A stretch of DNA of 61,960 bases from the NCBI GenBank assembly GCA_902495305.1, contig CABUWG010000004.1, forward strand, positions 1 through 61,960, written 5' to 3'. Of the stretch, positions 2,505 through 49,804 are shown piece by piece. The stretch's first letter is position 1, and every line of letters starts with the position of its first letter. A program made the translations under genes and the position numbers. The notes beneath the pieces are model-generated. The model did not search any database. It was given only the letters and a program-made list of their open reading frames with translations, and was not told the DNA's origin. The DNA comes from an uncultured Pseudomonadota bacterium (GTDB lineage: Bacteria; Pseudomonadota; Alphaproteobacteria; RF32; CAG-239).

Positions 2505-3122
2505 TTATCTCCTTTTATGAATATCCGTTATAATCAAAATGACGCCTTCATCACTTTCCTGACTGGGCAAGACTTCGGCCTTAAACTTCCAAAGCTTTTC
2601 AGCCTCTGCAATTTCATCTGCATAAGACTTGCCTTTGAGAAAGATACATTTGGTTTTGCGGGTGCAAAATTTTTGCGCGTAGCTCAACAAATCGCTTAAC
2701 GAGGCCATAGCGCGCGATGTGACGACATCGGCAGCTTCAGCCGGAATGTCCTCAATTCGTTTATTTAAGACTTCGACGTTTGAAATTCCGGTGATTTTCT
2801 TAACTTCGTTTAAATACAGCGTTTTCTTTTTAATGCTTTCCACAAGCCTGAATTTTAAATACGGTGTTTTTTCTGAAGCCATAATAGCAAGAACCATTCC
2901 CGGAAAGCCAGCGCCAGAGCCAAAATCATAAACAACACCCTGTTGCGGAAGCAAAGAAAAAAGTTGCATAGAATCTTGAAAATGACGCTGCCAAGCATCT
3001 TCCAAAGAATTTTTACTGACAAGATTCATGCGATTTTGCCACTCGTGAAGAGAAGCTTCATACGATTTTAACTTGTCCATTGTTTCACGTGAAACAGTAT
3101 ATTTGCACTCTAAATTTTTCAT
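2505..3122 (-). CDS. rsmG: 16S rRNA (guanine527-N7)-methyltransferase RsmG/GidB
   Basis: 205 aa with SAM motif DFGSGAGFPG. It sits immediately upstream of parA, as in the canonical gid-par cluster. Confidence 0.9.
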   Translation of the reverse strand: MKNLECKYTVSRETMDKLKSYEASLHEWQNRMNLVSKNSLEDAWQRHFQDSMQLFSLLPQQGVVYDFGSGAGFPGMVLAIMASEKTPYLKFRLVESIKKKTLYLNEVKKITGISNVEVLNKRIEDIPAEAADVVTSRAMASLSDLLSYAQKFCTRKTKCIFLKGKSYADEIAEAEKLWKFKAEVLPSQESDEGVILIITDIHKRR

Positions 3123-3300: not shown

Positions 3301-4131
3301 TTATAACTTCCAGCGATTTTTATAATCCATTCTTTGCAAAAGCGATTCGGCGACCGAAAAATCCTGTGTTAATTCGCTTGTATGATGAGCGTCGTCACTA
3401 ATCAGAACCGGAATATTAAGCTCACGCATTCTTTGTAATAAAACAGGGGCAGGATAACAATTGCCGTTTTTACGAATGCCTTTGGTACTCACTTCTGCCG
3501 GAACGTTATTTTTTGCCAAAGTTTGCAACAGATGTTCTTTTTCCGCCATAAAGCTGTTATCATCACAACCGGAAACCCGACGCATATAATCAAGATGAGC
3601 AACAAAATTAAACAATTTTGTTTCCGCAGCCCGTGCTATTGTCAAAAAATGGCGGCGAAGATATGTTTCCTGTTGCTCTTTTTGCGGAACAAACTTTATC
3701 AGTTCATCGGCGTCTATCGGATAATCACAAGATTCGGAAAACAAAAAATGATTGCCGGTGATATAATAATCCAGCTTTGTCCGGTTGCGAAAGTTCATAA
3801 ATTCCTCCAGCCAGCCGTCGTAAGTAAAGAAATCGACTTCCGCACCGACAAAAATCCGCAACGGATAGTTTTTTGCCAGTTGGGCAATTTCTTGTTTGTA
3901 TGCGACAAAGGCTGCTGCCGCTTCGGCAAAATCAGTGCGATAGATGTGTGAACCGCGGTATTTTTTTAATTTCGGCCAACTCGGGCTTTGATGAAAATTT
4001 TTATGGACGACCAAATGCTCGGAAAAACCAATTTCTTTTAATCCGCATTTGACGGCCTGTTCCAGCATTTCCTCCGCGGAATTGCGCCCGTCAGAAAACA
4101 GCGTATGGGTATGATAGGAATAATTTTGCAT
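3301..4131 (-). CDS. PHP-domain phosphoesterase (HisJ/HisK histidinol-phosphatase family)
   Basis: 276 aa. N-terminal YHTHTLFSDG, an internal EH and a C-terminal DDAHH match the PHP metal-ligand pattern. Confidence 0.8.
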   Translation of the reverse strand: MQNYSYHTHTLFSDGRNSAEEMLEQAVKCGLKEIGFSEHLVVHKNFHQSPSWPKLKKYRGSHIYRTDFAEAAAAFVAYKQEIAQLAKNYPLRIFVGAEVDFFTYDGWLEEFMNFRNRTKLDYYITGNHFLFSESCDYPIDADELIKFVPQKEQQETYLRRHFLTIARAAETKLFNFVAHLDYMRRVSGCDDNSFMAEKEHLLQTLAKNNVPAEVSTKGIRKNGNCYPAPVLLQRMRELNIPVLISDDAHHTSELTQDFSVAESLLQRMDYKNRWKL

Positions 4132-4134
4132 TAT

Positions 4135-5559
4135 TTACGCTTCATAGTAAGGCAAAAGTTCAATATCTTCCCCTTCTGCAGAGGCTTGGATATCAATTCC
4201 GATATTTTGCAGATTATGAACAAGGTTCGGGTAACCGCGCAAGGCGTAAGACGGTGTTTCAATTGTGCTTTTGCCGTCTGCAATTGCCGCTGTTATTATC
4301 AATCCGGCAGTTCCGCGCAAATCCATTCCTTCAACATCTGCAGAATGATATTTTGACGGGTGGATCTTAACCAGCAGCGCTTCTTTATTTGCAATAACCT
4401 GACTGGTGACGATATCAATTTTTTCGCTGTCACAATTTAAGCCGAATTTGCGCATTTCCTTCAGATGGCCGTCACGTCCGGGCCAAATGGCATCCGTCAT
4501 TAATGAATCTGTTTGGGCAAGCCCCAAAACCGGCGTCCAAATTTGTTGAATATCTGTTTCGGCTCCGGGGAAAGGCGTCATTTGCATAAGAATACCGTCA
4601 AAATCCGGCCGGTTGCGAAAGTTAAAGCTTAACTGTGTCCGGTCCGGAGAATAGAAAATACCGCTTTTGAACATTTTATTCAGCTGAGAAAACCACGGGC
4701 GGCAATGTTCGAAATTAATACCGTTTAACTGAATTTCGCCTTTGGTTCCCAAGGCCAGCAATGCATAAGTTGCGGCTTCAATCCTGTCCGGAATGACATA
4801 AAAGTTTCCGCCCCTCAGCAAGGATTTGTTTTTACCGTCATAGATTATGCCGGTGCTCTCATTGCCGGACAAACCTAATCCCATTTGCTGCAGCATGTTA
4901 ACCAGATTGGAAACTTCCGGTTCCAACGAGGCATTATAAATCATTTTAACATCCTGCGCGCCGGCAACGGCCAGAAGCCAGTGAAAGGTTGCGCCGTGAG
5001 AAACCCGCAATGTAGTATAAATCGGGCGAACGGTTTCCGGATTTTTACAGGGCAGGGTAAAGATGAGATAATTGCCTTTATCGGAGTTTTCTTCTTCAAT
5101 GGAAGCGCCCAAGACAGAGCGGATCAAGTCTTCATGAAAATCTGTCGGACGTTTGCCGCCAAAAGAGCAGCCGCCGGGGACATAAACTTTTAAACTGTCA
5201 AATTCTTTGGTATAACGAAAACGGGCGAGCAGTGACCCCCAGAGGTAATAGCTGGCGCGAATATGCGAGGCTTTTTGCGAGACAATATTATTTGTGATTT
5301 TAGCGGCATGGAGGTACAAAATTTTCTGACGGAAGTTATAGCGGACATCGACGCCGAGTTCAATCAGTATCCGGCCAAGCTCAAGAACATCGCTGATATT
5401 TGGCACATTATGGAGAATGACAGGCTCGTTTGTCAGCAAAGAAGCGCACATCAGTCCGAGAATCGAATTTTTGGCACCACTGATATCAACTGATCCGGCA
5501 ACAGGATTGCCGCCGTTAATGACTAATTTTTTGGGAATAAAGAACCTTGATTTTATCAT
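4135..5559 (-). CDS. divergent MurA-family enolpyruvyl transferase (474 aa)
   Basis: MurA hallmark positions are recognisable: ISGAKNS (Lys22 region), IRAS, PGGCSFGGKRPTD (Cys115/Arg120 region), ETDIQ (Asp305 region) and MDLRGT (Arg397 region). It is otherwise very divergent and longer than housekeeping MurA. Confidence 0.8.
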   Translation of the reverse strand: MIKSRFFIPKKLVINGGNPVAGSVDISGAKNSILGLMCASLLTNEPVILHNVPNISDVLELGRILIELGVDVRYNFRQKILYLHAAKITNNIVSQKASHIRASYYLWGSLLARFRYTKEFDSLKVYVPGGCSFGGKRPTDFHEDLIRSVLGASIEEENSDKGNYLIFTLPCKNPETVRPIYTTLRVSHGATFHWLLAVAGAQDVKMIYNASLEPEVSNLVNMLQQMGLGLSGNESTGIIYDGKNKSLLRGGNFYVIPDRIEAATYALLALGTKGEIQLNGINFEHCRPWFSQLNKMFKSGIFYSPDRTQLSFNFRNRPDFDGILMQMTPFPGAETDIQQIWTPVLGLAQTDSLMTDAIWPGRDGHLKEMRKFGLNCDSEKIDIVTSQVIANKEALLVKIHPSKYHSADVEGMDLRGTAGLIITAAIADGKSTIETPSYALRGYPNLVHNLQNIGIDIQASAEGEDIELLPYYEA

Positions 5560-5622
5560 TGCGCACCTCCAATTATCTGAATGTGCGTATTATAAGTCCC
5601 AATGGTTAATTCCGGCTTAATA

Positions 5623-6249
5623 TCATTTGCTTTTTATTTGCAGCAGCGCATAAACGTCTTCTCCGCAAAGGGTATCAAAATGCTGTTTTAAGGGCAGGGC
5701 GTCGCGAATCAGGTTTTGTTTTTGTCTGGCCGAAAGATGATAGCGTCCGGCAATTCCTTCTGCCCGCTGTTCGATTGTTACAAAGTTGAACCCTTCGGTC
5801 AGCATATCGCAAAGCTGGATCAGGCGGTCATAGTCATCATAAACAAGCCGGGCTAATTTTTCTTTTGCCCAGCAGAGCCAGTCTGCGGGATAATTATATT
5901 CGTCATCCGAAAAATCTTTGATATGAAACGTATGCGTCAGGCAAATACGGGCAACATCATCATAGCCTAATGCCGTCATTTCCTCATATCCTTCACGGGC
6001 ATGAAAGCGGTTTTCTTCCCGTTCGTTAATTCTTTTGCCAAAATCATGCAGCAAGCCGAGAACATAAGCTTTTTGCGCGTCCAAGGCCGGAACTTTTTCT
6101 GCTATTATTTTAGCAAAACGGGCAACGCCGCGGGTATGAAAAACGTAGGCGTCGCGATCTTTGAAAGGGTAGGGTTTGGACAGGCGGTTAAGAATTACCG
6201 CATGCCAGAGTTTCTCGGCCGTGACCAGATCCGGAAATTTGGGTTTCAT
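5623..6249 (-). CDS. HD/HDIG-domain phosphohydrolase, paralog 1 of 3
   Basis: 208 aa with H...LGLLHDFGKR...FHAREG...LTHTF. It aligns with ORFs 6188..6877 and 6906..7535. Confidence 0.8.
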   Translation of the reverse strand: MKPKFPDLVTAEKLWHAVILNRLSKPYPFKDRDAYVFHTRGVARFAKIIAEKVPALDAQKAYVLGLLHDFGKRINEREENRFHAREGYEEMTALGYDDVARICLTHTFHIKDFSDDEYNYPADWLCWAKEKLARLVYDDYDRLIQLCDMLTEGFNFVTIEQRAEGIAGRYHLSARQKQNLIRDALPLKQHFDTLCGEDVYALLQIKSK

Positions 6250-6877
6250 CTAAGTTTACTCCGATTAGGTTATAAATATCCCGACCGCAAAGATGTTCAA
6301 AATATGACTTAATCCGGCACAAATGTTTCACGTGAATCAAAAGGTTTGGATTGTTATATCGTCTGGCCAGACTGGCAAAACGATATTCTATCGAGCAAGT
6401 CGTGCCTTTATCATTCAAAACATCCGCCAGCTGTAACAACAGGTCATAATCATTATAGGTCACGTTTTTGAGATAGGCCTGACATTGCAGCAAATCTTCA
6501 TGCGGCTGGGTAAAAGTGTTAATATCAAAATTCTTATCATAAAAGCTGTGCGTTATGCAGATGCGGGCAACATCGTCATAGCCGAGCGCCGTCATCCATT
6601 CATAGCCGACGTTTGCATGAAAGCGGTGTTCCGCAAATTCATCAATGCAACGGCCGCAGTCATGGAGCAGCCCTAAAACATAGGCTTTTTCCGTATCTAA
6701 ATCAGGACAGAAAGCCGCAATTTTTTCAGCTATGGCTGCAACGGTATGGCAATGTTTGCGAAATTCGGCTTCCCATTCCGGTTTAAACGGATATTTGGTC
6801 GCATTACGTTTTTGAATCACTGTTTCAAAAATTCTATCTGCTTGTTGGCGCGTGGGATATAACCGATTCATTTTCAT
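6188..6877 (-). CDS. HD/HDIG-domain phosphohydrolase, paralog 2 of 3 (3' end overlaps paralog 1 by 62 nt)
   Basis: 229 aa with LGLLHDCGRC...FHANVG...ITHSF. Its C-terminal tail of about 20 aa has no counterpart in the other two paralogs. Confidence 0.75.
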   Translation of the reverse strand: MKMNRLYPTRQQADRIFETVIQKRNATKYPFKPEWEAEFRKHCHTVAAIAEKIAAFCPDLDTEKAYVLGLLHDCGRCIDEFAEHRFHANVGYEWMTALGYDDVARICITHSFYDKNFDINTFTQPHEDLLQCQAYLKNVTYNDYDLLLQLADVLNDKGTTCSIEYRFASLARRYNNPNLLIHVKHLCRIKSYFEHLCGRDIYNLIGVNLDETQISGSGHGRETLACGNS

Positions 6878-6905
6878 TACTTCTTTTTTAAATACATTGT
6901 TTAAA

Positions 6906-7535
6906 TTATACCGATATTTTCTGATCTATTTGCAACAGGTCATAAATATCACACCGGCATTTTTCATCAAAATATTTTTTTAGCTCATTCAGACGGCTGA
7001 CGGACATATTTACAATTTCATTATTTAAGTTATGACGTTTGGCGACGCTGTTAAAGCGATATTCTATCGTACACTGCTGTCCGCAATCGTTCAGAATATC
7101 CGCCAGCTGGATAAGATAATCATAGTCATCAAAAGAGATTTGTTTTAAGAGTTCTCTGCTCCGGATATAATCCTGCGGCTTCATCCGGTACATAGACAAG
7201 TTCAGCTGCGGTTCATAAAAACAATGCGTGAAAGCAATGCGGGCGGCAGACGGCATATTATTTTTAATAAGATAATCAAAACCGGTCAGACCGTGAAAAG
7301 TTCCTTCGCTTCGTTCATCGCTTATTCTGCCGGCATCATGAAGCAGGCCTAAAATATATGACTTTTCCGGATTCAAATTTTGAGCGGCCGAGGCGATTTT
7401 TTCTGAAATATAAGCAACAGACAGGCAATGGTTTTTAAATTTTTGTTCGACTTCCGGCGTAAAGGGGCAAGCCGATTTTCTGCGGACGCTCAGTACTGTA
7501 TCTAATAAATTTTGTGCTTTTTCTAATTCTGTCAT
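6906..7535 (-). CDS. HD/HDIG-domain phosphohydrolase, paralog 3 of 3
   Basis: 209 aa with LGLLHDAGRI...FHGLTG...FTHCF. Confidence 0.8.
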   Translation of the reverse strand: MTELEKAQNLLDTVLSVRRKSACPFTPEVEQKFKNHCLSVAYISEKIASAAQNLNPEKSYILGLLHDAGRISDERSEGTFHGLTGFDYLIKNNMPSAARIAFTHCFYEPQLNLSMYRMKPQDYIRSRELLKQISFDDYDYLIQLADILNDCGQQCTIEYRFNSVAKRHNLNNEIVNMSVSRLNELKKYFDEKCRCDIYDLLQIDQKISV

Positions 7536-7538
7536 TTT

Positions 7539-9386
7539 TTACCTGTTAACATAAGCTAAAATTGCCATGATGGCCGCCGGTGTTACGCCGGGGATACGTG
7601 AAGCCTCGCCGATTGTGGACGGGCGGACTTTTGTTAATTTAAATACCATTTCACGCGACAAACCGCCAATCTTGGCGTAATCAATATCATCACGCAAGCG
7701 CAGATTTTCATCTTTTTTGAAAATCTGAATATCAGCCATCTGACGCTTCAGATATCCGGAATATTTCGCTTCAACCTCAATTTCTTCATAAACGTCCGGC
7801 GGAATATCACTCAGCTCCGGCCAGATTGCCGTAACTGTTTCACGTGAAACATCAGCATAAGACATGACGTTAAAAGCCGTTCTTCTGGTTCCGTCTTTTT
7901 TGGTCTTAACACCAAATTTTTCTAACTCATTCGGTGTGATAAACAAAGTATCCGCTATGTGACGGTACTGAGATATTTGCGCCATTTTAGCTTTAAATAC
8001 ACTGTATCTTTCTTCTCCGACACAACCTGCCTGATACCCTTTTTCCGTCAAACGGGCGTCAGCGTTGTCAGCACGCAGATAAAGACGGTATTCAGAGCGT
8101 GACGTAAACATTCGATAAGGCTCGTCAACGCCTTTGGTTATTAAATCATCAACCATAACGCCGATATAGGCCTCACTGCGGTCAATTTCAAAACCGGAAC
8201 GATTCAGAGCTTTTAATCCGGCGTTGACGCCGGCAAGAAGCCCCTGAGCCGCGGCCTCTTCATAACCGGTCGTGCCATTAATCTGACCGGCCAAGAACAG
8301 TCCGGAAACTTTTTTGCATTCCAGATGATTGTTTAATTCCTGCGGATCAACGTAATCATATTCGATAGCATAGGCCGGCCGGATTATTTCAACATTTTCC
8401 AGCCCCTTAATCGTATGAATAAACTCAGCTTGCACATCTGCCGGCAGAGACGTTGAAATACCATTCGGATAGACGACATCCGTATTCAGCCCTTCCGGCT
8501 CCAAAAAAATCTGGTGGCTGGTACGGTCAGCGAATTTGACAAGTTTATCTTCAATACTCGGGCAGTAGCGCGGGCCAATACCTGTAATCAGGCCGGAAAA
8601 GAGGGCACATTTATCAAAATTAGCCCGAATAATTTCATGCGTCTTCTCATTTGTATGCGTGACATAGCATTGAATTTGCGGATTGGTAATTTCTTTAGTC
8701 AGGTAAGAAAAAGGTATTGCCGGATTGTCTCCGTCCTGCGTTTCTAAAATTTCCCAGTTGATTGTCTTACCGTTCAAACGCGCCGGCGTACCGGTCTTCA
8801 ACCTTCCGACTTTAAGGCCTTTTGACTTTAAATACGGTGTTATACCTTCACAGGTTACATCATTTACCCGTCCGCCGACAGTCGTTTGATGACCGATAAA
8901 CATCACACCGTTCAAAAAAGTGCCAGATGTCAGAATCACTGTTTTAGACTTCAGCTGTTCGCCGTCAGCCAGAATTACGCCGGAAATTTTATCGTTCTCA
9001 AAAGCAAGACCTTCAACGGCGGCCTCAATAATCTGTAAGTTTTTTTGTTCGCGCAGCGCTTTAAGCATATGCTTTTTATACAATTCCCGGTCAGCCTGAG
9101 CGCGCGGCCCTCTCACGGCCGGTCCTTTGGAGGCATTTAACATACGAAACTGAATGCCGGCCTTGTCAATGACTTTTGCCATCAGGCCGTCAAGCGCGTC
9201 TATTTCTCTTACCAAATGGCCTTTTCCCAATCCGCCGATTGCCGGATTGCAGGACATTTCGCCAATTGTAGAAATTTTATGAGTTATTAAAGCCGTTTTT
9301 GCTCCGACACGGGCTGCCGCCGCACAAGCTTCGCAGCCGGCATGGCCTCCGCCGACGACGATTACGTCAAATTCGTTATTATTCAT
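7539..9386 (-). CDS. mnmG: tRNA uridine 5-carboxymethylaminomethyl modification enzyme MnmG/GidA
   Basis: 615 aa with FAD motif [13 protein letters not shown] and full-length GidA-like sequence. Confidence 0.97.
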
Positions 9387-9559
9387 TATCTTAGACCTGA
9401 GTTCCTTTTGTCTTGGGTATAATATAATTGATAAAAGTTTGCAAGTGATTAATAGAGGGAAAATATGTCCTTATCTCTTAATTCACTTTTATTTTCTTCC
9501 TTTTTATATTTTCCCTTCTGTCTTCCTCTATATTTTTTTCTTCCGCAACCAACTTTTTG

Positions 9560-9775
9560 CTATTCGTTCCTTTTTGTCGCAGCTTTTTCTTTTTTTTATT
9601 TTGAGGTTTTGTTTTTTCATATAGTTGGTTTCTTCTTTCTTACTTTTGCTTGACCAAAAGTAAGCAAAAGTCAAGCCCAACCTCATTTTCTAAGCTTTCA
9701 GCCCAAAGTTAAGGTCGCTACGCTCCATTACCCTTTGCTTAATTATCATCTCTTTGGGCCAAAAGCTAAGAAATC
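9560..9775. repeat. intergenic repeat family E, copy 1
   Basis: It shares blocks with 61690..61915: ttttttcatatagttggtt, a 10-bp hairpin (9639..9664), tttctaagctttca, gtcgctacgctcca and aaaagctaagaa. Confidence 0.6.
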
Positions 9776-9932
9776 ATTCGGTAATCGGGTGGGGCTAACT
9801 CCCCCTGTCCCCCTCTTAACAAAGAGGGGGAAATATGTAGAACTTTCGGTTTTTACTCTAAAACCTAAGCTATTTGCAAAGGGCACCCCAGTCGTGCCGG
9901 ATGAGAGGAATGTGCTTCAAAGAAAAAGCAAC

Positions 9933-10238
9933 GTCATTCTGAGTGCAACGAAGAATCCAGTCAGATAAATCAGCTATATTATTAAACTGGATCCTTCGCT
10001 TCGCTCAGGATGACAAAGAAAGAGGCTCAGAATGACCCGTGCGACGGGTGGCGGTCGGGAGGCCGACGGCCGTTAGTTGTCAGCTCACTGCCTAGAGGGT
10101 CGCATTGCTATGGCGAAATGTGTGGGAGAGGAAGTGCTTTGAAGCACTGTCATTCTCGGGCTTGACCCGAGAATCCATAAAGATAATAGCACTGTACTTG
10201 TTTCCTTATGGATTGCCGGATCGAAGTCCGGCAATGAC
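9933..10238. repeat. cluster of short GTCATT...AATCC-type hairpin elements and other short repeats
   Basis: Copies lie at 9933..9960, 9987..10014 (inverted), 10025..10036 (partial), 10149..10176 and 10210..10238 (inverted). Direct repeats of gctNtggcgaaatgYgtgggagaggaagtgctttgaagc lie at about 10104..10148 and 10336..10380. Confidence 0.6.
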
Positions 10239-10458
10239 CTGCACGGCAGGTGCGCGGCAATGTCATCAGCAATGTGCTCCAGAAACCGCGGCCGAACGTC
10301 GGCGACGGTCGGTTTGTACAGTGCCTTGAAACCCGCGTTGCTGTGGCGAAATGCGTGGGAGAGGAAGTGCTTTGAAGCCTAACTCCCCCTCTTAGCAAAG
10401 AGGAGGAAAAAGAAAGGTGCTCTGGCGGGGGTTGTGGGGAAGGATGTACTTTGAAATG

Positions 10459-10486
10459 AAAAAAGCGGGAGAGTGTCCCGCTTTTT
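10459..10486 (-). terminator. intrinsic terminator after the XRE gene
   Basis: Hairpin agcggga/tcccgct (10464..10470 with 10476..10482). It is flanked by an A-run and a T-run and starts 2 nt after the stop codon at 10488..10490. Confidence 0.6.
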
Positions 10487-10487
10487 C

Positions 10488-10748
10488 TTATTGCCATGGA
10501 GAGGTTTGGGCATCGGACAATTTGATATCAAACACCTTGTCGAAGAAAGAGAACAAATATACGTATTCATCCATACGCAGGTTGCCCTTATTTTTCCTTA
10601 ATCTTTCTATTTTTCCTTCCAAAAAGTCTATATGATTAGACAGCTCGGCGCTTGTCAAACCCCGTTCCGTCATTATCCGGTCTAATTCCTGATTACAATA
10701 AGCCCGAAAGTTCTTATACCATTTTTTTCTATATTCTCTTGATAACAT
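10488..10748 (-). CDS. small XRE/Cro-type HTH protein (86 aa)
   Basis: The segment LDRIMTERGLTSAELSNHIDFLEGKIERLRKNKGNLRMDEY fits an HTH_3-like helix-turn-helix. AAGGAG lies upstream of the ATG. There is a second copy at the window start. Confidence 0.75.
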   Translation of the reverse strand: MLSREYRKKWYKNFRAYCNQELDRIMTERGLTSAELSNHIDFLEGKIERLRKNKGNLRMDEYVYLFSFFDKVFDIKLSDAQTSPWQ

Positions 10749-10773
10749 TTTATTTTAGCTCCTTGATTTTGTT

Positions 10774-10927
10774 AAAACAAAACCACCCGATAAAGGGTGG
10801 CGGAGCTAGAAAACTGCGATAAATCAGTCACCGTTATTCGCCCGCAAAGCGGCTTATTTCCGGTACTCCGCCAAATGCGGAATTTATCGAGATGTTTTCT
10901 AGACACCACAGTCCGTCTCCGGACTGC
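10774..10927 (-). ncRNA. candidate structured leader RNA, copy 2 (three-way junction plus intrinsic terminator) upstream of the XRE gene
   Basis: 5' hairpin CAGUCCG-GAGA-CGGACUG. Outer helix pairs 10902..10894 with 10814..10806. Inner helix CGAUAAA/UUUAUCG closes the junction. Hairpin UCCGC-AUUUG-GCGGA is present. Terminator CCACCC-UUUAUC-GGGUGG plus UUUUGUUUU lies at 10800..10774. Covariation with copy 1 supports the fold. Confidence 0.6.
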
Positions 10928-10934
10928 GAGGTTT

Positions 10935-10962
10935 ATAATAAACGAATCTATGGTTTTTGCAA
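10935..10962 (-). promoter_or_regulatory. sigma70-like promoter for the leader RNA (copy 2)
   Basis: Minus strand has TTGCAA (10962..10957), a 16-nt spacer and TATTAT (10940..10935). It starts 11 nt after the mnmE stop. Confidence 0.45.
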
Positions 10963-10972
10963 GCGGATTTTA

Positions 10973-13296: not shown

Positions 13297-14994
13297 ATGT
13301 TAGTATATGCCTTGTTTGCCCTGTTTACCGGGGTTATTGCCGGTTTGTTAATGGAGGAAATAACTGAAAAAATTATCTTCAGCATCATTGGCGCTGTTGT
13401 AGTTTTTTTAGTATGTATAACATTTTTGCCGACAATTAATTTCAATTTTTGGGCTCCTTATCTCATTATTGCCGCGATGGTATTTCTTTCATTTATCATC
13501 GGGGACGATAAAAATGTTCGTGCCTATATTGTAACTTTTACTGCTATCGTATGTGCACTCGCTACACTTTTCTTTGCTTCGCTTCCGATATTCAGAAGCA
13601 AATCGTATCGTGAGATTTTGAAAGTAACAAACGTCAGTGACTCGATGTTTGTGAACAAAATCAAAGCAATAGACGTAAAAAGTATGGTATCTGTCGACAA
13701 GCAATTTGCCTTGAAATATGCAAATTCGCTGGTAGGCAACATTCCGGGACTGGGATCCAGAGTAGAAGTTGTTGATGCATTCCGTCAGACACTGAACGGG
13801 ACGCTGGTTATTGACGGCAAAGACGTTGTTTTTCAAAATCAGACCGTGTGGGTTGCCCCGCTGGAGCACAGAAGCTTTTTCAAATGGTTTTATAACGGAC
13901 ATACGCCCGGTTACATCATTGTTGATGCAACACAGGAGAATAAAGCCTATCTGGTAACGAATCTGAATAATGAGGATTTGGAACTTAAATATCTGGAAAG
14001 CGCTTTTTGGATGGCCGATATTGAAAGATATCTGAAGTACAACGGTTATGTGACCAGCGGACTGAACGATATTGATTTTGAAATTGACAACAGCGGCAGG
14101 CCTTATCAGGTTGTGACCACTTACAAGCCGACAATCGGGTTTGGCGGTAAGGTTGCAAACGGCGTTGTGACGATTGATGTTCAGACCGGAGATATCAAAC
14201 ACTATTCGATTGACGAAGCTCCGGAATGGATTGAAAGAATCCAGCCGGCAGAGTTTATCCGCGAATATGTTGATGATTACGGCAAGTATGTTCACGGTTT
14301 CTGGAATACTGTCTTTAGCGAAACAGACGTTATCAGAGCCGGAAATCAGGTCACGATTATTGATGATGCGGACAACAGCTACTGGTATGTCAGTCTGGTT
14401 TCGGCTAATTCCCATGATGATTCTTCCTGCGGGTTTATGTTGGTCGATACCCGAACAAAGGAGGCTTATCGCTTTGATATTCCGGGGATAAACGAGGTAA
14501 AGGCAGAAAATATTATCGAAGGTATAAAAATGGACGGCACGCAGGTTAATGCGACATCGCCCATTCCTTATAATATTTACGGTATTCCGACATATTTTAT
14601 GACTTTGCGCAGCGCGGAAAGCGGAGAATTTATCGGATATGCCCTCTGTTCAAGACAGGACAGAACCTGCTATGCTATTGGCAAAACCAGAGAAGAAGTT
14701 GAAAATCTTTATATCAAAACCGTCAGAAATAAAGGCAATAAAATAAACAGTTTTGCTGATTCTGACGAAGCCGGAAATTTTACCGTTCAAAAAGTTTGTT
14801 TTGAAAACGGAAAATATTTCTTTATTTTCAACGAAGTATCAAATATTGAATTTTCTGCCGGCAGCGATGTGTCAAAAGAACTAAAATGGTCTGAGCCGGG
14901 TGATACCGTCAAAATATCTTACCGCAAAAGTGATGACAATACTTATGTGGTCTCAAAATTTGACAATACAAAATATCATCTTGATTTGGACTAA
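13297..14994 (+). CDS. hypothetical membrane-anchored protein (565 aa), N-terminal TM helices plus large soluble domain
   Basis: Long uninterrupted ORF. The first ~100 aa are hydrophobic. I recognise no family motif. Confidence 0.75.
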   Translation: MLVYALFALFTGVIAGLLMEEITEKIIFSIIGAVVVFLVCITFLPTINFNFWAPYLIIAAMVFLSFIIGDDKNVRAYIVTFTAIVCALATLFFASLPIFRSKSYREILKVTNVSDSMFVNKIKAIDVKSMVSVDKQFALKYANSLVGNIPGLGSRVEVVDAFRQTLNGTLVIDGKDVVFQNQTVWVAPLEHRSFFKWFYNGHTPGYIIVDATQENKAYLVTNLNNEDLELKYLESAFWMADIERYLKYNGYVTSGLNDIDFEIDNSGRPYQVVTTYKPTIGFGGKVANGVVTIDVQTGDIKHYSIDEAPEWIERIQPAEFIREYVDDYGKYVHGFWNTVFSETDVIRAGNQVTIIDDADNSYWYVSLVSANSHDDSSCGFMLVDTRTKEAYRFDIPGINEVKAENIIEGIKMDGTQVNATSPIPYNIYGIPTYFMTLRSAESGEFIGYALCSRQDRTCYAIGKTREEVENLYIKTVRNKGNKINSFADSDEAGNFTVQKVCFENGKYFFIFNEVSNIEFSAGSDVSKELKWSEPGDTVKISYRKSDDNTYVVSKFDNTKYHLDLD

Positions 14995-16295: not shown

Positions 16296-16766
16296 GATTA
16301 CCTTGAAATTTGGATAGGATTAATTATTTCCTTGGAAGGTAATTTTTTTATAGTATGTTCTTTGTAAGATGTCAAATGTTTGTTAAAAAAAATTATGAAC
16401 AGCCCCGCAGGGCAAACATTTAAATTTTAAAAAAGTTTTTGTTGTTTGTATATTCCTGTGAGTCTTGTGGATTATTTTTTATGCGCAGAGTTATCCAGAT
16501 GTTAATAATTTGTTAAGAGAATCGTTAAGACTTTATTAACCTTCGTTAAGAATCGTTTAAGAATCTTGTAAAGACTTTTTTAACCTTTTTTGAAAAAATT
16601 TTTTATCCAGAGGGTGGGGAAGGTGGTTTGTCCCTGTATATAACTTTTAGATATAAATTCTTTTTACGGTGATAAAATTGTATAACATCCTAAAAGGGGG
16701 CTGTTATCCACAGAAACGGCGTGTTTTGTGGATAAGACTCATAAGCCTTTGTTTTGGGAGAAAGAT
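16296..16766. other. candidate chromosomal replication origin (oriC)
   Basis: The region is gene-free and AT-rich. DnaA-box 9-mers: TTATCCACA 16704..16712, TGTGGATAA 16727..16735, TTATCCAGA 16491..16499 and 16603..16611, TGTGGATTA 16466..16474. TTAA-N7-TTAA (CtrA-type) sites: 16502..16516, 16525..16539 and 16546..16560. The flanking synteny is alphaproteobacterial origin synteny. Confidence 0.6.
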
Positions 16767-19853: not shown

Positions 19854-21053
19854 ATGACCGGAACTAAAAATCTTAAATTATTGGCTTTGCTGCTGGCGCT
19901 TTTTGCTTGCGGCAAGGAAGAACAGCAATCCGCCGAACAGACGGAAATTCCTTTGACGGCGGAAGAAAAAATTGATAAGTCCGATTTTGAGCTCAAGCAG
20001 GTGGATTATAATTCTCTGTCAGGGTGGAAGAAAGACGATTTGGCAACGGCAATGCAGGCTTTTGCCCTTTCCTGCCAAAAAATTATGGCGTCTGACAGCG
20101 AGTTTCTTTCCGATAAGGCTTTGGTTAAAATTCCGACGGCAGCTTATAAGGAAATTTGTCAGAAGCTTGAAACAACGGCGCCGCTGGAATATCCGAATTT
20201 TATCGAGCAGAATTTTACGCCGTATCAGGTTTTGTTCAAGGGGAATGACATCGGGCAGTTTACGTCTTATTTTGAACCGACAATTCAGGTTTCGGTTACC
20301 CGCAGTCACGGGTATAATTATCCGATTTACGGTCGTCCGTATGATTTGTTTGAAATGAATCTGAAAGATTTTGACGAGGCTTATCCTAATAAAAAGCTTA
20401 TGGGACGCGTGGTCGGGCAAAAATTTGTGCCTTATTTTACGAGAGACGAGATTTCTAAGACCATGATGAAAGCGCCGGTGATTTTATGGGCTGCCAATCC
20501 GGTTGATTTGTATATTGCGCAGATTCAGGGTTCTGCCGTAGCCGAGACGGAAGACGGCAAGCAGGTCCGGATTGCCTATGACAGCAACAACGGGCATAAA
20601 TTTACCGGAATCGGGCGGATTTTGCTGGAAAGACGGCTTATCCGAAAAGATAAGGCTTCGATGATGGAAATCAAAAAATGGATGCACGAGAATTATGACG
20701 TGGCAAAAGACCTGATGAATGAGAACAAACGTTATGTTTTTCACAGGTTGTCATACGAGAGCGGTCCGGTTGGCGCAGAAGGTGTGGTCTTGACGGCGGG
20801 CAGAAGTCTGGCCGTGGATGAAAACTATATTCCTTATGGCAGTTTGCTCTGGCTGGAAACGGCTTTGCCGAAATACGGCGAGACTTATAAAATGGTTGTT
20901 GCGCAGGATACCGGAGAAGCCATTAAAGGTGCTATCCGCGGTGACTATTTCTGGGGAACAGGCAGTGATGACGTTTTGGAACTGGCCGGAAAAATGAATT
21001 CGACCGGACGCTATTTTATTTTTGTTCCCAAAGGCGTGGAGGTTAATCAATAG
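19854..21053 (+). CDS. mltA: membrane-bound lytic murein transglycosylase A
   Basis: Lipoprotein-like signal (LLALFAC) plus MltA and 3D-domain motifs (IQGS..., VAQDTGEAIKG..RGDYFWG). Confidence 0.9.
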   Translation: MTGTKNLKLLALLLALFACGKEEQQSAEQTEIPLTAEEKIDKSDFELKQVDYNSLSGWKKDDLATAMQAFALSCQKIMASDSEFLSDKALVKIPTAAYKEICQKLETTAPLEYPNFIEQNFTPYQVLFKGNDIGQFTSYFEPTIQVSVTRSHGYNYPIYGRPYDLFEMNLKDFDEAYPNKKLMGRVVGQKFVPYFTRDEISKTMMKAPVILWAANPVDLYIAQIQGSAVAETEDGKQVRIAYDSNNGHKFTGIGRILLERRLIRKDKASMMEIKKWMHENYDVAKDLMNENKRYVFHRLSYESGPVGAEGVVLTAGRSLAVDENYIPYGSLLWLETALPKYGETYKMVVAQDTGEAIKGAIRGDYFWGTGSDDVLELAGKMNSTGRYFIFVPKGVEVNQ

Positions 21054-22710: not shown

Positions 22711-23789
22711 CAGGCTTTTACTCCTCCGGCGCCGGCTGCTTTGGGCGCGTTCTCGTCTAACGGCCAGCGGGGGCGCGGTTTGAAATCCAAGTCGTTGGTA
22801 TAACCGGCGCGGAATCTTTCCAGTCCGGCCCAGGCGATCATGACGCCGTTGTCGGTGCAGAAACGGACGGGAGGAGCGGAGAAAACCATGTTATTGGCTT
22901 TAGCCAGAAGTTCCAGCCGGTTTCTTAAAAAGGTGTTGGATGCCACGCCGCCGGAAACGACAAGGTCTTTGCCTTCGGGATAATGTTCCTGAAAATAACG
23001 GATGGCTTTTTCAAGCTTGTGACAAAGGCTTTCGGTAACGGCAAACTGAAAACCGGCGCAGATATCGGCCACATCCTGCTCGGGCAGAAGAGCGTGTTCC
23101 AAGATGCCGTCCTTTGAGTAGGATTCAATAATTTTGCGTACGGCGGTTTTTAATCCCGAGAAAGAAAGGTTGCAGTCCGGAGAATTGAAAAGCGGGCGCG
23201 GCAGAACAAAGCGGCGGCTGTTGCCGACATCTGCCATTTTTTCTATCATCGGGCCGCCGGGGTAGCCCAAGCCCAGCATTTTTGACACTTTGTCAAAAGC
23301 CTCGCCGGCCGCATCGTCAATCGTGGTTCCGAGGCGTTGGTATTCTCCGACATTTTTTACGACTAAAATTTGACAATGTCCGCCGGAAACAAGTAATAGT
23401 AGATAAGGGTATTGTACGTCACTGGTCAGTCTGGCGGCTAAGGCATGGCCTTCCAGATGGTTTACGGCAACAAAAGGTTTGTTTAAGGCCAGAGCCATGG
23501 CTTTGGCTGCCATTACGCCGACGACAACGCCGCCGATCAGTCCGGGGCCGGAAGAGGCCGCAACAGCGTCAATATCGTCTGGTTTTAATCCGGCTTTGGA
23601 AAAGGTATGTTCAATAATCTCGTCAATATGTTCCAAATGCGAGCGGGCGGCAATTTCCGGTACGACACCGCCGAAAGGTTTGTGTTCTTCAAGCTGGGTC
23701 AAAAGGCATTCGCCTAATATTTGCCGCTTATCATTGACAATGGCGGCGGCTGTTTCGTCGCAGCTGCTCTCTATTCCTAAAACTATCAT
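22710..23789 (-). CDS. tsaD: tRNA N6-threonylcarbamoyladenosine synthase TsaD (Gcp)
   Basis: 359 aa with IESSCDET, HLEGH and SGGVA motifs. Confidence 0.95.
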   Translation of the reverse strand: MIVLGIESSCDETAAAIVNDKRQILGECLLTQLEEHKPFGGVVPEIAARSHLEHIDEIIEHTFSKAGLKPDDIDAVAASSGPGLIGGVVVGVMAAKAMALALNKPFVAVNHLEGHALAARLTSDVQYPYLLLLVSGGHCQILVVKNVGEYQRLGTTIDDAAGEAFDKVSKMLGLGYPGGPMIEKMADVGNSRRFVLPRPLFNSPDCNLSFSGLKTAVRKIIESYSKDGILEHALLPEQDVADICAGFQFAVTESLCHKLEKAIRYFQEHYPEGKDLVVSGGVASNTFLRNRLELLAKANNMVFSAPPVRFCTDNGVMIAWAGLERFRAGYTNDLDFKPRPRWPLDENAPKAAGAGGVKA

Positions 23790-23881
23790 TGCTTATCTCT
23801 TTTTTATTGCAGTTTTTTTTTAATTATATACACTATAAAATAGTTTATTGCAAAGGCAAAATTTCAGGCGAAAGGTTGAAA

Positions 23882-24925
23882 ATGGCAAATAAAATCGAGA
23901 AAAAGGAATCTGCGGCGGAAGAAACGGCTCCGGTAAAGAAAGTTTCGGGCAGCGGGCATTCTTCGGCGAAAATTCTGGTGCTGATTTTGGTTCTGGGCGC
24001 CGGATGGGGAATTTATAAGAATCCGCAGCTGGTTGAAAGAGCAAAAGCGCTGCTTGCAGAATCGGCGGCACGGTATTCGGAGAACTTGCCGGAAAAACAA
24101 CCGATCCAAACAGATATTCAGGATTTGCAAAACCAGATTGCAATGCTGAGGACGGAGCTTTTTAATCTGAAGAATTCTTTGCCGGCAGAAGGAGAGCCGG
24201 TTGACGTGCAGAAGCTGAACGAGCTTTATGACAAGTTTGACGCCATTGAAAAAACAAATATGAATATTATCAATTCCAAGGCGGATGCTTCGGCCTTGCT
24301 GGGAATGATGACGCGGCTTGACGAGGCTGAAAGCAAGCTGAAACTGATCAGCAGGGCAACAGATGAGAATGCGTTGATTTTGACGGCGGCGATGATGGTT
24401 AAAGAAGCGTCCGGCCGCGGCGGAAATTTTGTTTATGAAGCAGAAGTTTTGCAGCAGCTGGCCCAAGGGAATCCGCGTCTGGCGGAACCTCTGGCCGTGA
24501 TTGCCAAAACGGCACCGTCCGGAATTGTAACAAATGCACGCCTTATTAACGAATTTGAAAGTATTTATGGTGCCATACTAAAGAAGCAAAAAGATGCGGC
24601 AGCCCAGACATGGAAAGACCGGATTTTGAGCAAACTGAGCGACTTTGTAAAAGTCCGGAAAGTTAATGAAGCGGAAGAGGCAGAAATGCAAATTCTGCAG
24701 AATTTGAAGAATATCAGAGACCTTGTGCGGGAAGAGAATTTTGTTCAGGCGGCAGAAGAGCTGCGTTTGCCCGAGAATGAGGCCTTGCTGGAAGATGCCG
24801 GTTTGCGGAAGTGGCAGGAAAAGGCTTTGGCCAAGGTTGATTTTGAACAGGCCGTGAGCAGGATTTCTACTTATTCTCTGGCAGCTATGAAAGTCAATGC
24901 GATTAAAAAGGAGACAATGGAATGA
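23882..24925 (+). CDS. coiled-coil membrane protein, candidate alphaproteobacterial Mic60 (mitofilin-like)
   Basis: I prefer the ATG at 23882 (MANKIEKK). It has one N-terminal TM (ILVLILVLGAGWGIY), a long coiled coil, and a C-terminal block (...LRKWQEKALAKVDFEQAV...). Its position between tsaD and the hemY-like gene fits. Confidence 0.6.
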   Translation: MANKIEKKESAAEETAPVKKVSGSGHSSAKILVLILVLGAGWGIYKNPQLVERAKALLAESAARYSENLPEKQPIQTDIQDLQNQIAMLRTELFNLKNSLPAEGEPVDVQKLNELYDKFDAIEKTNMNIINSKADASALLGMMTRLDEAESKLKLISRATDENALILTAAMMVKEASGRGGNFVYEAEVLQQLAQGNPRLAEPLAVIAKTAPSGIVTNARLINEFESIYGAILKKQKDAAAQTWKDRILSKLSDFVKVRKVNEAEEAEMQILQNLKNIRDLVREENFVQAAEELRLPENEALLEDAGLRKWQEKALAKVDFEQAVSRISTYSLAAMKVNAIKKETME

Positions 24926-49631: not shown

Positions 49632-49804
49632 TTGGCTTCTCCGATAATTACTTCCTGATGGTTTTTATCTAATTTGACAATATATTTTGTACCGTCGGCT
49701 TCTTCTTTGATAAGCCGTCCGTCTTCCTCGTAATATTGAGGGTAGCTGTCAATTGTTATCGTACCGTCTAGACGGACGAATTTTCTTTTAAAATATTCAA
49801 ACAT
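49628..49804 (-). CDS. candidate antitoxin (58 aa; alternative 81-aa start at 49873)
   Basis: Its stop overlaps the toxin ATG (ATGA). It is a small acidic protein. The start choice is uncertain. Confidence 0.45.
   Translation of the reverse strand: MFEYFKRKFVRLDGTITIDSYPQYYEEDGRLIKEEADGTKYIVKLDKNHQEVIIGEAK

What the first reader, a model, noticed from the sequence alone, without database searches (positions are those of the whole stretch)
3301..7535. Five-gene insertion splitting mnmG/rsmG: PHP phosphoesterase + divergent MurA-like enolpyruvyl transferase + three tandem HDIG paralogs
gidA(mnmG)-gidB(rsmG)-parA-parB is normally contiguous. Here 4.2 kb of co-oriented, tightly packed genes is inserted between mnmG and rsmG. 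The 474-aa enolpyruvyl transferase keeps the MurA catalytic landmarks: the Lys in GAKN, the Cys in PGGC, the Arg in KRPTD, the Asp in ETD and the Arg in DLRG. It is otherwise far from housekeeping MurA. MurA homologs that act on nucleotides rather than UDP-GlcNAc are known, for example NikO/PolA-type UMP enolpyruvyl transferases in peptidyl-nucleoside antibiotic pathways. The three HD proteins are mutually alignable and share the pattern LLHDxG(K/R) plus FH..G plus (T/I)TH(T/S/C)F. They resemble YqeK-like nucleotide phosphohydrolases. The PHP enzyme is a phosphomonoesterase type. Taken together this looks like a nucleotide or nucleotide-sugar modification or salvage module of unknown product rather than cell-wall housekeeping.
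Basis: partly seen in the sequence, partly recalled or inferred. Interest (0 to 1): 0.65.

Follow-up and report, generated by a model that had tools for sequence, protein, structure and literature searches.

The report
Divergent MurA inside HD/PHP hydrolase array
Between two normally adjacent housekeeping genes, an uncultured gut alphaproteobacterium carries an old, copy-number-variable array of phosphate-cleaving enzymes plus a very divergent copy of the first cell-wall enzyme (MurA); the two parts occur separately in relatives, so they are probably not one new pathway.

Summary
Five co-oriented, tightly packed genes sit between mnmG and rsmG: three HD paralogs, a 474-aa MurA-like gene and a PHP gene.

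The proposed five-gene nucleotide-modification module is only partly supported.

- **MurA-like gene.** It belongs to a discrete, fast-evolving MurA subfamily seen only in uncultured Alphaproteobacteria MAGs and contigs, several from termite-gut samples. It is 24-34% identical to canonical MurAs, which share at least 42% across phyla. It keeps every catalytic and UDP-GlcNAc-binding residue. It is much closer to MurA than to NikO in sequence and in predicted fold. Its tree matches the mnmG tree.
- **Separability.** The HD/PHP array between mnmG and rsmG is the older, more widespread feature. At least ten relatives' loci have it without any MurA-like gene. Deeper relatives have the MurA-like gene beside obg with no HD or PHP. 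HD copies range 0-4 and PHP copies 0-4.
- **Best reading.** This is a divergent but ordinary-chemistry MurA lying in a lineage-specific array of binuclear HD and HisJ-family PHP phosphohydrolases of unknown substrate.
- **Not settled.** I could not test whether a second, canonical murA exists in the genome.

Interest is moderate.

The parts
7539..9386 (-). mnmG (gidA), upstream flank. Its stop codon is 3 nt from the start of HD-a.
   Evidence: It scores 690 bits against E. coli MnmG structures, so this lineage is not globally fast-evolving.
6906..7535 (-). HD-a: stand-alone HD-domain phosphohydrolase, orthogroup HD-I
   Evidence: Pfam HD/HDOD. It carries the invariant H..HD..H..H..D set. Its ortholog L001_HD1 is 61% identical. 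Orthogroup from the tree.
6188..6877 (-). HD-b: HD paralog, orthogroup HD-I. Its 3' end overlaps HD-c by 62 nt.
   Evidence: It reaches the TIGR00277 HDIG cut-off (30.3 against 27.6).
5623..6249 (-). HD-c: HD paralog, orthogroup HD-II. This is the type also found in relatives that lack the MurA-like gene.
   Evidence: The AF2 model has pLDDT 96.8. Foldseek gives only weak matches to SadB, PgpH HD, YqeK-family and HD-GYP structures.
4135..5559 (-). Divergent MurA-type enolpyruvyl transferase, 474 aa
   Evidence: PF00275 at 137 bits. NCBIfam MurA models score below their cut-offs. Best PDB matches are MurAs. Catalytic and UDP-GlcNAc-binding residues are conserved. AF2 pLDDT is 91.9, with TM 0.90-0.93 to MurA structures.
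3301..4131 (-). PHP-domain phosphoesterase, HisJ family, orthogroup PHP-A
   Evidence: PF02811. TIGR01856 scores 90.1 against a cut-off of 90.2. T. thermophilus histidinol phosphatase 2yxo scores 64 bits. The PHP metal ligands are invariant in 14 paralogs.
2505..3122 (-). rsmG (gidB), downstream flank, followed by parA and parB
   Evidence: The corresponding genes in relatives carry PF02527 GidB.

Best explanation
The 4.2-kb block is an old, vertically inherited, lineage-specific part of the mnmG-rsmG gene string. The lineage is a clade of uncultured Alphaproteobacteria, sampled largely from human-gut and termite-gut metagenomes. The block has two separable parts.

**(1) An array of phosphohydrolases.** These are stand-alone HD proteins with the six-residue H..HD..H..H..D set that I take as typical of binuclear-metal nucleotide phosphodiesterases and pyrophosphatases (YqeK, PgpH, HD-GYP types). 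With them are HisJ-family PHP proteins carrying the full PHP metal-ligand set, i.e. phosphomonoesterase type. The array duplicates, fuses and loses copies freely. It exists in many relatives without any MurA gene.

**(2) A MurA gene of a discrete, fast-evolving subfamily confined to this clade.** It keeps every residue that canonical MurA uses for catalysis and for binding PEP and UDP-GlcNAc. It therefore most likely performs the ordinary reaction: PEP + UDP-GlcNAc gives enolpyruvyl-UDP-GlcNAc + Pi, the first committed step of peptidoglycan synthesis. The organism does make peptidoglycan, because MltA is encoded in the window.

**Shown:** gene content, the residue sets, the fold, the phylogenetic pattern, and the separability of the two parts.

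**Inferred:** the MurA reaction itself, the metal chemistry and nucleotide-type substrates of the HD and PHP enzymes, and co-transcription with mnmG (inferred only from the 3-63 nt spacings).
For: **MurA identity**
- The 33 PDB sequence hits are MurAs (111-183 bits) plus NikO last at 65.7.
- The AF2 model matches MurA structures at E 1e-44 to 1e-38 and TMt 0.85-0.93. NikO comes next (E 1e-33, TMt 0.84), then AroA.
- K22, N23, R91, C115, R120, D123, H125, S162, G164, D231, D305, R331, D369, R371 and R397 are all conserved in the window protein and in 9 family members.

**Vertical inheritance**
- MurA-like identities track mnmG identities: 78/87, 67/84 and 60-62/77-79%. The two proteins give the same groupings.
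- The block shows no GC anomaly.

**Housekeeping context in deep relatives**
- In three loci (L004, L008, L088, 47-50% identity) the gene lies next to obg, with no HD or PHP within 10 kb.

**Peptidoglycan is present**
- MltA is encoded at 19854-21053. Relatives' loci carry MltA, Amidase_3, LysM and YkuD.

**Separability**
- mnmG-HD(n)-PHP(n)-rsmG without the MurA-like gene occurs in L089, L090, L096-L106, L108 and L113.
- MurA-like with PHP but no HD occurs in L006/L007. MurA-like with HD but no PHP occurs in L087.
- The two HD orthogroups and the two PHP orthogroups are each lost differentially, and none tracks the MurA-like gene.

**HD and PHP chemistry**
- The ligand sets are invariant.
- The nearest sequence or structure matches are YqeK-family proteins, PgpH, HD-GYP, and HisJ histidinol phosphatases.
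Against: - The MurA-like protein is exceptionally divergent. It is 24-34% identical to canonical MurAs, which share 42-81% across phyla. It scores 124 bits against E. coli MurA, whereas E. coli MurA scores 345-424 bits against MurAs of Firmicutes, Aquifex and Campylobacter. The neighbouring MnmG is normally conserved at 690 bits.
- In the exhaustive search the family is a discrete island: scores fall from 350 to 196 bits.
- It scores below all curated NCBIfam MurA cut-offs, and NCBI records name its relatives 'hypothetical protein'.
- Family-invariant changes sit next to substrate contacts: V163H, E329P, the residue before T304-D305 changed to Glu, an extra residue in the Cys loop, and a 6-aa insertion just before that loop.
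- It evolves faster than Obg and PrfB between deep relatives: 60% against 76% and 80%.
- Its presence in the interval is patchy on the mnmG tree. The most frequently sampled relative (HD protein P0241, seen on 363 contigs, one of 1.9 Mb) has no MurA-like cluster of comparable prevalence anywhere in the searches. This suggests the gene can be lost, which an only copy of murA should not tolerate unless MurNAc is scavenged.
- Extra nucleotide-type enzymes (NUDIX, an AAA_33 kinase) have joined it in some lineages.
Confidence: 0.5

Rival explanations
1. The gene is a second MurA isozyme or accessory paralog. Under this view the genomes also carry a canonical murA elsewhere, and the divergent copy is a dispensable extra UDP-GlcNAc enolpyruvyl transferase, comparable to MurA2/MurZ of Firmicutes. 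It would have the same chemistry but a different regulation or condition of use.
For: - Presence is patchy among close relatives, and the gene appears to be absent from the most prevalent relative.
- It evolves fast and is extremely divergent, while the active site stays intact.
- One truncated copy (P0085, 339 aa) lies on a 163-kb contig.
Against: - No second MurA homolog is present in the 62-kb window or in any of the roughly 20-kb family loci.
- The longest contigs that carry family genes are only about 1.9 Mb. If those are near-complete chromosomes, the genomes are small and a duplicate is less expected.
- In deep relatives the gene sits in a housekeeping position beside obg.
- Loss in some lineages could instead reflect MurNAc scavenging. 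A MurQ-like SIS protein is present in one relative.
Confidence: 0.25
2. The MurA-like enzyme would transfer enolpyruvate to a different nucleotide or nucleotide sugar, and the HD, PHP (and NUDIX or kinase) enzymes would process that substrate or product.
For: - HD and PHP genes are adjacent to the MurA-like gene in 12 loci from three sub-lineages. NUDIX or AAA_33 kinase genes have been recruited right next to it.
- Family-invariant substitutions lie beside the sugar and diphosphate contacts: V163H and a Glu before T304-D305.
- The protein scores below the MurA equivalog cut-offs.
Against: - All UDP-GlcNAc and PEP contact residues except V163 are conserved.
- NikO is far more distant than MurA.
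- The two parts are separable in both directions, and no HD or PHP orthogroup co-varies with the MurA-like gene.
- All the co-located examples share the same conserved synteny from rho to mlaE, so adjacency is largely inherited rather than independently re-created.
Confidence: 0.13
3. The block is a recently acquired genomic island inserted between mnmG and rsmG.
For: In most bacteria mnmG and rsmG are adjacent (general knowledge). The nearest canonical MurAs by identity are from Brevibacillus, Oscillospiraceae and Melainabacteria rather than from Proteobacteria.
Against: - GC content equals that of the flanks.
- No integrase, tRNA or repeat lies at the borders.
- The arrangement is conserved across lineages whose mnmG proteins are 74-88% identical.
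- The MurA-like tree is congruent with the mnmG tree.
Confidence: 0.03

Closest known systems
MurA, UDP-N-acetylglucosamine 1-carboxyvinyltransferase (E. coli/E. cloacae MurA; Firmicutes MurA1/MurA2)
   Same: It has the same two-domain fold, with TM 0.90-0.93. It has the same catalytic Cys, Lys, Asp and Arg residues and the same UDP-GlcNAc contacts. The Cys115 equivalent is present, so fosfomycin sensitivity is expected (inference).
   Different: - It is only 24-34% identical and falls below the curated family cut-offs.
- It is about 55 residues longer. The extra length includes a 6-aa insertion before the Cys loop, one extra residue within that loop, an insertion of about 15 aa near residue 385, and a C-terminal tail.
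- V163 is replaced by an invariant His, and E329 by Pro.
- It is confined to one clade and is patchy within it.
NikO / PolA-type UMP enolpyruvyl transferases (PDB 4fqd)
   Same: They belong to the same superfamily and have a similar length (about 470-480 aa).
   Different: - NikO is a much weaker match: 65.7 bits and 19-20% identity.
- No nucleoside-antibiotic biosynthetic genes lie nearby. The neighbours are mnmE, mnmG, rsmG, parA and parB.
YqeK (symmetrical Ap4A hydrolase) and other binuclear HD phosphodiesterases (PgpH, HD-GYP)
   Same: The proteins are stand-alone HD domains of about 200 aa with the H..HD..H..H..D ligand set. YqeK-family structures are among the best sequence and fold matches.
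   Different: - TIGR00488 scores 17.9 against a cut-off of 70.
- Foldseek gives TM of at most 0.47 and E of at least 0.018 despite a model with pLDDT 96.8.
- There is no nadD-yqeK context.
- The family is expanded to as many as four HD domains at this locus, including HD-HD fusions.
HisJ-family PHP histidinol-phosphate phosphatases (TIGR01856; T. thermophilus 2yxo)
   Same: It has a PHP domain with the complete metal-ligand set. It scores 90.1 bits on TIGR01856 and 64 bits against 2yxo.
   Different: - It is just under the subfamily cut-off and far under the HisJ equivalog cut-off (77 against 133).
- It is not in a his operon.
- It occurs as 0-4 tandem paralogs only 30-50% identical to each other, forming two old orthogroups. 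That pattern does not fit a single biosynthetic step.

Membership tests
MurA (UDP-GlcNAc 1-carboxyvinyltransferase) | EPSP-synthase/MurA two-domain fold | tested here: met
   PF00275 scores 137 bits against a cut-off of 22.8. The AF2 model (pLDDT 91.9) matches MurA structures at TMt 0.90-0.93.
MurA (UDP-GlcNAc 1-carboxyvinyltransferase) | Catalytic residues K22, C115 (or Asp), D305, R397 and PEP-binding R120, R371 | tested here: met
   K30, C131, D336, R441, R137 and R415 are aligned to E. coli MurA (verified as identical to 1uae). They are conserved in all family members examined.
MurA (UDP-GlcNAc 1-carboxyvinyltransferase) | UDP-GlcNAc contact residues (N23, R91, 120-124 segment, 160-164 segment, D305, 327 region) | tested here: met
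   N31, R101, R137-P-T-D-F, S187, G189 and D336 are kept. The exceptions are V163 to an invariant His188, a variable K160 position, and E329 to Pro. The list of contact residues comes from my own knowledge of the 1UAE structure and its UniProt annotation.
MurA (UDP-GlcNAc 1-carboxyvinyltransferase) | Score above curated family cut-offs (NCBIfam TIGR01072 / PRK09369 / PRK12830) | tested here: not met
   265 against 392.7, 282.8 against 297, and 261 against 552.
MurA (UDP-GlcNAc 1-carboxyvinyltransferase) | Is the genome's (only) enzyme for the first committed peptidoglycan step; enzymatic activity | not testable with these tools
   Only 62 kb of the genome and roughly 20-kb pieces of relatives could be read, and none holds a second MurA homolog.
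NikO/PolA-type UMP enolpyruvyl transferase | Closer to NikO than to MurA | tested here: not met
   NikO 4fqd scores 65.7 bits against 111-183 bits for MurAs. Foldseek ranks NikO after 43 MurA entries, at 19-20% identity.
NikO/PolA-type UMP enolpyruvyl transferase | Embedded in a peptidyl-nucleoside antibiotic gene cluster | tested here: not met
   The neighbours are mnmE, mnmG, rsmG, parA, parB, rho and coaE, and the same holds in relatives.
YqeK Ap4A hydrolase (TIGR00488) | HD fold with H..HD..H..H..D metal ligands | tested here: met
   H38, H68, D69, H83, H106 and D148 are invariant in 43 sequences.
YqeK Ap4A hydrolase (TIGR00488) | Score above the equivalog cut-off / close structural match | tested here: not met
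   TIGR00488 scores 17.9 against 70.15. PDB YqeK 8jja gives E 0.02. Foldseek against YqeK-family entries gives TM 0.31-0.47.
HisJ-family PHP histidinol phosphatase (TIGR01856 / PRK08123) | PHP domain with complete metal-ligand set | tested here: met
   PF02811 scores 58.5 bits. H7, H9, D14, H39, E98, H128, H179, D247 and H249 are invariant in 14 paralogs.
HisJ-family PHP histidinol phosphatase (TIGR01856 / PRK08123) | Score above the subfamily and equivalog cut-offs | tested here: inconclusive
   The window PHP scores 90.1 against 90.2 on TIGR01856. A paralog in L001 passes (96.5), while the L089 copy scores 87.3. On the HisJ equivalog the window PHP scores 77.3 against 133, so that cut-off is not met.
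HisJ-family PHP histidinol phosphatase (TIGR01856 / PRK08123) | Histidinol-phosphate specificity / his-pathway context | not testable with these tools
   No his genes lie in the window or the loci. Substrate-specificity residues were not evaluated.

The most novel reading that the evidence does not exclude
The divergent MurA and its variable retinue of HD, PHP, NUDIX and small P-loop kinase genes might form a flexible system that handles a modified UDP-sugar.

One version: it makes an enolpyruvyl nucleotide sugar other than EP-UDP-GlcNAc.

Another version: it keeps MurA running by hydrolysing inhibitory UDP-GlcNAc derivatives, such as the 3'-phosphate made by zeta-type toxin kinases. A zeta-like kinase gene is present elsewhere in the window.

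Under this reading a canonical murA would exist elsewhere in the genome. The tandem paralog turnover would reflect substrate diversification.
Probability: 0.1. Interest if true: 0.75.

Novelty: new variant of a known kind. Interest (0 to 1): 0.4.

Why it matters
- **Range of working MurA sequences.** If the divergent enzyme is the only MurA of these gut bacteria, it would mark an unusually remote working sequence for a major antibiotic target. At about 28% identity to E. coli MurA with an intact active site, it would be a natural test case for which parts of MurA are dispensable.
- **Annotation.** NCBI records name members of this family 'hypothetical protein', so peptidoglycan synthesis would be mis-scored in metabolic reconstructions of a widespread but uncultured gut lineage.
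- **Cell-wall nutrition.** Its patchy presence raises a testable question: do some gut Alphaproteobacteria depend on scavenged MurNAc, or do they carry two MurA types?
- **Uncharacterised HD subfamily.** The HD proteins give a confident predicted structure with no close solved relative, and they represent a broadly distributed, uncharacterised HD subfamily.

Tried and rejected
1. **Direct test for a second murA.** This was not possible.
   - The look-up of encoding contigs returns only 10 kb on each side.
   - I linked proteins to genomes by accession or contig-count fingerprints. That gave only the indirect result that the L089-type species lacks a MurA-like cluster of matching prevalence.
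   - The word-based prefilter is not exhaustive. One search missed many clusters that one search had found, so absence is an inference.
2. **Anti-phage defence role.** PADLOC gave only trivial Cas3-HD motif hits, at E of 1e-5 or weaker.
3. **Regulatory RNA, promoters and terminators in the block.**
   - Rfam found nothing at gathering threshold.
   - The only sub-threshold hit, sRNA-Xcc1, lies outside the block.
   - Promoter and terminator counts equal those in shuffled sequence.
4. **Remnant of the MurA-like gene in the L089 HD-PHP spacer.** None was found.
5. **Constant neighbours of out-of-clade HD homologs.** There are none. Their contexts include a pseudouridine synthase with CAT, NAD(P)HX dehydratase, and ThyX with GyrB.
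6. **Relationship between the AAA_33 kinase next to the MurA-like gene in L092 and the window's zeta-like kinase.** They are not related (E 0.086).
7. **Literature.** Searches for this arrangement or for divergent alphaproteobacterial MurA returned nothing relevant. The HolPase paper I opened (PMC10804674) concerns HAD-type enzymes, not PHP.

Full report
**1. Observation**

The minus strand of window 1-12.3 kb reads mnmE, a 1.6-kb gap, mnmG (7539-9386), HD-a (6906-7535), HD-b (6188-6877), HD-c (5623-6249), a 474-aa EPSP-synthase-superfamily gene (4135-5559), a PHP gene (3301-4131), then rsmG, parA and parB.

From the coordinates, spacers inside the block are 3, 28, -62 (an overlap), 63 and 3 nt, and 178 nt separate PHP from rsmG. 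Pfam confirms PHP, EPSP_synthase and three HD domains. The HD proteins are 34-41% identical to each other, and each has its own 60-67% ortholog in a relative. They are therefore old paralogs, not recent copies. GC content of the block matches its flanks.

**2. The enolpyruvyl transferase**

Evidence that it is MurA-like:
- NCBIfam places it nearest MurA but below every curated cut-off: PRK09369 282.8/297, TIGR01072 265/392.7.
- Against PDB sequences the hits are MurAs. The best is the S. pneumoniae type at 183 bits, and E. coli and E. cloacae MurA score about 125. NikO scores only 65.7.
The alignment shows K22, N23, R91, C115, R120, D123, H125, S162, G164, D231, D305, R331, D369, R371 and R397 all conserved, in the window protein and in nine family members down to 45% identity.
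- An AlphaFold model (pLDDT 91.9) superposes on MurA structures at TM 0.90-0.93. NikO follows at 0.84 and AroA at 0.78 or lower.

The NikO analogy is therefore not supported, and the active site looks like that of a UDP-GlcNAc enzyme.

Evidence that it is unusual:
- It is 24-34% identical to canonical MurAs from eight or more phyla, which share 42-81% with each other.
- E. coli MurA scores 345-424 bits against Firmicutes, Aquifex and Campylobacter MurAs, but only 124 bits against this protein.
- The neighbouring MnmG scores a normal 690 bits against E. coli MnmG. The divergence is therefore gene-specific, not lineage-wide.
- An exhaustive HMMER search of 1.84 billion representatives finds only six full-length family representatives (665-350 bits). 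Scores then drop sharply to 196 bits, where the continuum of ordinary MurAs begins.
- Family-invariant differences lie next to substrate contacts: V163 to His188, E329 to Pro, a Glu before T304-D305, one extra residue in the Cys loop, and a 6-aa insertion just before that loop.

**3. Distribution and context**

Relatives are uncultured MAG or metagenome proteins. Where NCBI gives a name, it is mostly Alphaproteobacteria or Rickettsiales bacterium. Several of the contigs that carry the HD homologs are titled human-gut metagenome.

I read 14 family loci.

| Locus (MurA-like identity) | Gene order between mnmG and rsmG, or other context |
|---|---|
| L001 (78%) | HDx3 - MurA - PHPx2 |
| L086 (67%) | HD - MurA - PHPx2 |
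| L094 (66%) | HD - MurA - PHPx4 |
| L092, L112 (61%) | HDx2 - AAA_33 kinase - MurA - PHP |
| L093 (61%) | HD - MurA - PHP |
| L003 (61%) | NUDIX - MurA - HD - PHP - HD-HD fusion - PHP |
| L095 | NUDIX - MurA - PHP - HD - HD |
| L087 (60%) | NUDIX - MurA - HD-HD fusion, no PHP |
| L006, L007 (60%) | MurA - PHP, no HD |
| L004, L008, L088 (47-50%) | Next to obg, with no HD or PHP within 10 kb |

MurA-like identities follow mnmG identities, and the two proteins give the same groupings. This indicates vertical descent.

**4. The HD/PHP array is the older feature**

An HD-profile scan of metagenome contigs, annotated with my own phmmer queries, together with L089 and L090, shows HD/PHP arrays with no MurA-like gene:
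- mnmG-HD-PHP-rsmG: L089, L101 and L102 (L090, L100 and L103 show the same mnmG-HD-PHP order on contigs that end before rsmG).
- mnmG-HD-PHP-PHP-rsmG: L099 and L104 (L097 and L098 show mnmG-HD-PHP-PHP on contigs that end before rsmG).
- mnmG-HD-HD-PHP-rsmG: L108 (L106 shows mnmG-HD-HD-PHP on a contig that ends before rsmG).
- mnmG-HD-HD-rsmG: L113.
- mnmG-HD-rsmG: L096.
- mnmG-HD-HDHD-PHP-PHP in a termite-gut contig: L105.

The L089 HD-PHP spacer holds no remnant of the MurA-like gene. On an mnmG neighbour-joining tree the MurA-containing and MurA-free intervals are interspersed.

The PHP proteins fall into two old orthogroups (A and B), and the HD proteins into two (I and II). Each is lost differentially, and none tracks the MurA-like gene. 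One relative also has a NUDIX-HD pair at an unrelated locus.

The two halves of the 'module' are therefore separable in both directions. Because all co-located examples share one conserved synteny block running from rho to mlaE, their adjacency is largely a single inherited event.

**5. What the HD and PHP proteins are**

*HD proteins.*
- H38, H68-D69, H83, H106 and D148 are invariant in 43 sequences. From my own knowledge, this is the ligand set of binuclear HD enzymes (YqeK, PgpH, HD-GYP).
- Sequence matches to YqeK and related families are weak: TIGR00488 17.9/70, and PDB 8jja at E 0.02.
- A very confident model (pLDDT 96.8) finds no close solved relative. Its best matches are SadB, PgpH, the YqeK-family entries 2ogi and 2o08, and HD-GYP, at E of at least 0.018 and TM of at most 0.47.
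- Homologs at 36-41% identity occur in unrelated bacteria (GC 29-65%) with no constant neighbours.
- I infer a nucleotide-type phosphodiester or pyrophosphate hydrolase of unknown substrate.

*PHP protein.*
- It has the full PHP ligand set.
- It sits at the edge of the HisJ family: 90.1/90.2 on TIGR01856, and 64 bits against T. thermophilus histidinol phosphatase.
- It scores far below the HisJ equivalog cut-off.
- It occurs as 0-4 divergent tandem copies, which does not fit a single histidine-pathway step.
- I infer a phosphomonoesterase of unknown substrate.

**6. The unresolved point**

I could not scan any whole genome for a second murA. The window encodes MltA, and relatives' loci encode MltA, Amidase_3, LysM and YkuD proteins. 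Peptidoglycan is therefore made and some MurA activity, or MurNAc salvage, is required.

No second MurA homolog lies in the window or in any locus read.

One observation points the other way. The most heavily sampled relative is the L089 type. Its HD protein P0241 occurs on 363 contigs, one of them 1.918 Mb long. No MurA-like cluster of comparable prevalence appears in either family search. In contrast, the window's own species shows matching counts for the MurA-like and HD proteins (69 and 48 contigs). This suggests the gene can be lost.

Loss fits either of two situations:
- a canonical murA exists elsewhere, which is the accessory-paralog rival; or
- the lineage depends on scavenged MurNAc, and a MurQ-like gene is seen in one relative.

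The word-based prefilter of these searches is not exhaustive, as one search shows, so this absence is an inference.

**7. Verdict**

The most likely reading (about 0.5) is a divergent but chemically ordinary MurA. It was carried into, or retained in, an old lineage-specific HD/PHP phosphohydrolase array between mnmG and rsmG.

| Reading | Confidence |
|---|---|
| Divergent, ordinary-chemistry MurA in an old HD/PHP array | about 0.5 |
| Accessory MurA isozyme, with a canonical murA elsewhere | about 0.25 |
| Recent genomic island | about 0.03 |

It is a new variant of known kinds (the MurA, HD and PHP families), not a new system. Literature searches found no description of it. Interest is moderate, at 0.4. 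The divergence of an antibiotic-target enzyme and its patchy presence are worth a whole-genome follow-up, but nothing here demands a new mechanism.

Noticed in passing
window 48936-49873 (-), beside 48016-48933 (+): A 231-aa protein matches Pfam Zeta_toxin (45 bits) and AAA_33. It is preceded by an overlapping 81-aa ORF, which makes a possible epsilon/zeta-like toxin-antitoxin pair. The pair lies next to a XerC/D-type tyrosine recombinase and ksgA. Zeta toxins are known to phosphorylate UDP-GlcNAc and so block MurA (my own knowledge). Any link to the divergent MurA is speculative.
   Followed up: partly
window 26362-27765 (+): A 467-aa protein of the ADP-dependent phosphofructokinase/glucokinase family (PF04587, 238 bits). 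From my own knowledge this family is mostly archaeal and eukaryotic, so it is unusual in an alphaproteobacterium.
   Followed up: no
window 16466-16735 and about 12000: Five DnaA-box-like sites, two of them perfect TTATCCACA, cluster in the 430-bp rho-coaE spacer. GC skew changes sign near 12 kb, and gene orientation flips there. The replication origin is probably here, 7-13 kb from the finding.
   Followed up: partly
window 9387-10972: A 1.6-kb stretch between mnmG and mnmE has no long ORF. It holds only an 86-aa ORF at 10488-10748 (-), a pyrimidine-rich tract at 9440-9650, and a sub-threshold Rfam hit to sRNA-Xcc1 (33.5/53 bits) at 10791-10872.
   Followed up: partly
window 13297-14994 (+), 23789-24925 (+), 24922-26355 (+), 46263-47165 (-): Four sizeable ORFs (565, 378, 477 and 300 aa) have no significant Pfam hit.
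   Followed up: no
L094 8318-11637; L003 12862-14097; L087 11495-12760: Paralog turnover in relatives is extreme. One locus has four tandem PHP genes, one of which is interrupted by a scaffold gap. Two lineages have HD-HD fusion proteins of 411-421 aa.
   Followed up: yes
L092 9458-9952; L112 9162-9676: A 164-aa AAA_33 P-loop kinase (70.7 bits; weak resemblance to Zeta_toxin and chloramphenicol phosphotransferase) sits directly upstream of the MurA-like gene in one sub-lineage. It is unrelated to the window's zeta-like protein (E 0.086).
   Followed up: partly
L091 6650-7555 (-) and 9365-10642 (+): These features lie on the same 488-kb contig as a family locus. A NUDIX-HD gene pair follows tuf, and a MurQ-like SIS-domain gene lies nearby. 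This hints at MurNAc recycling in the lineage.
   Followed up: no
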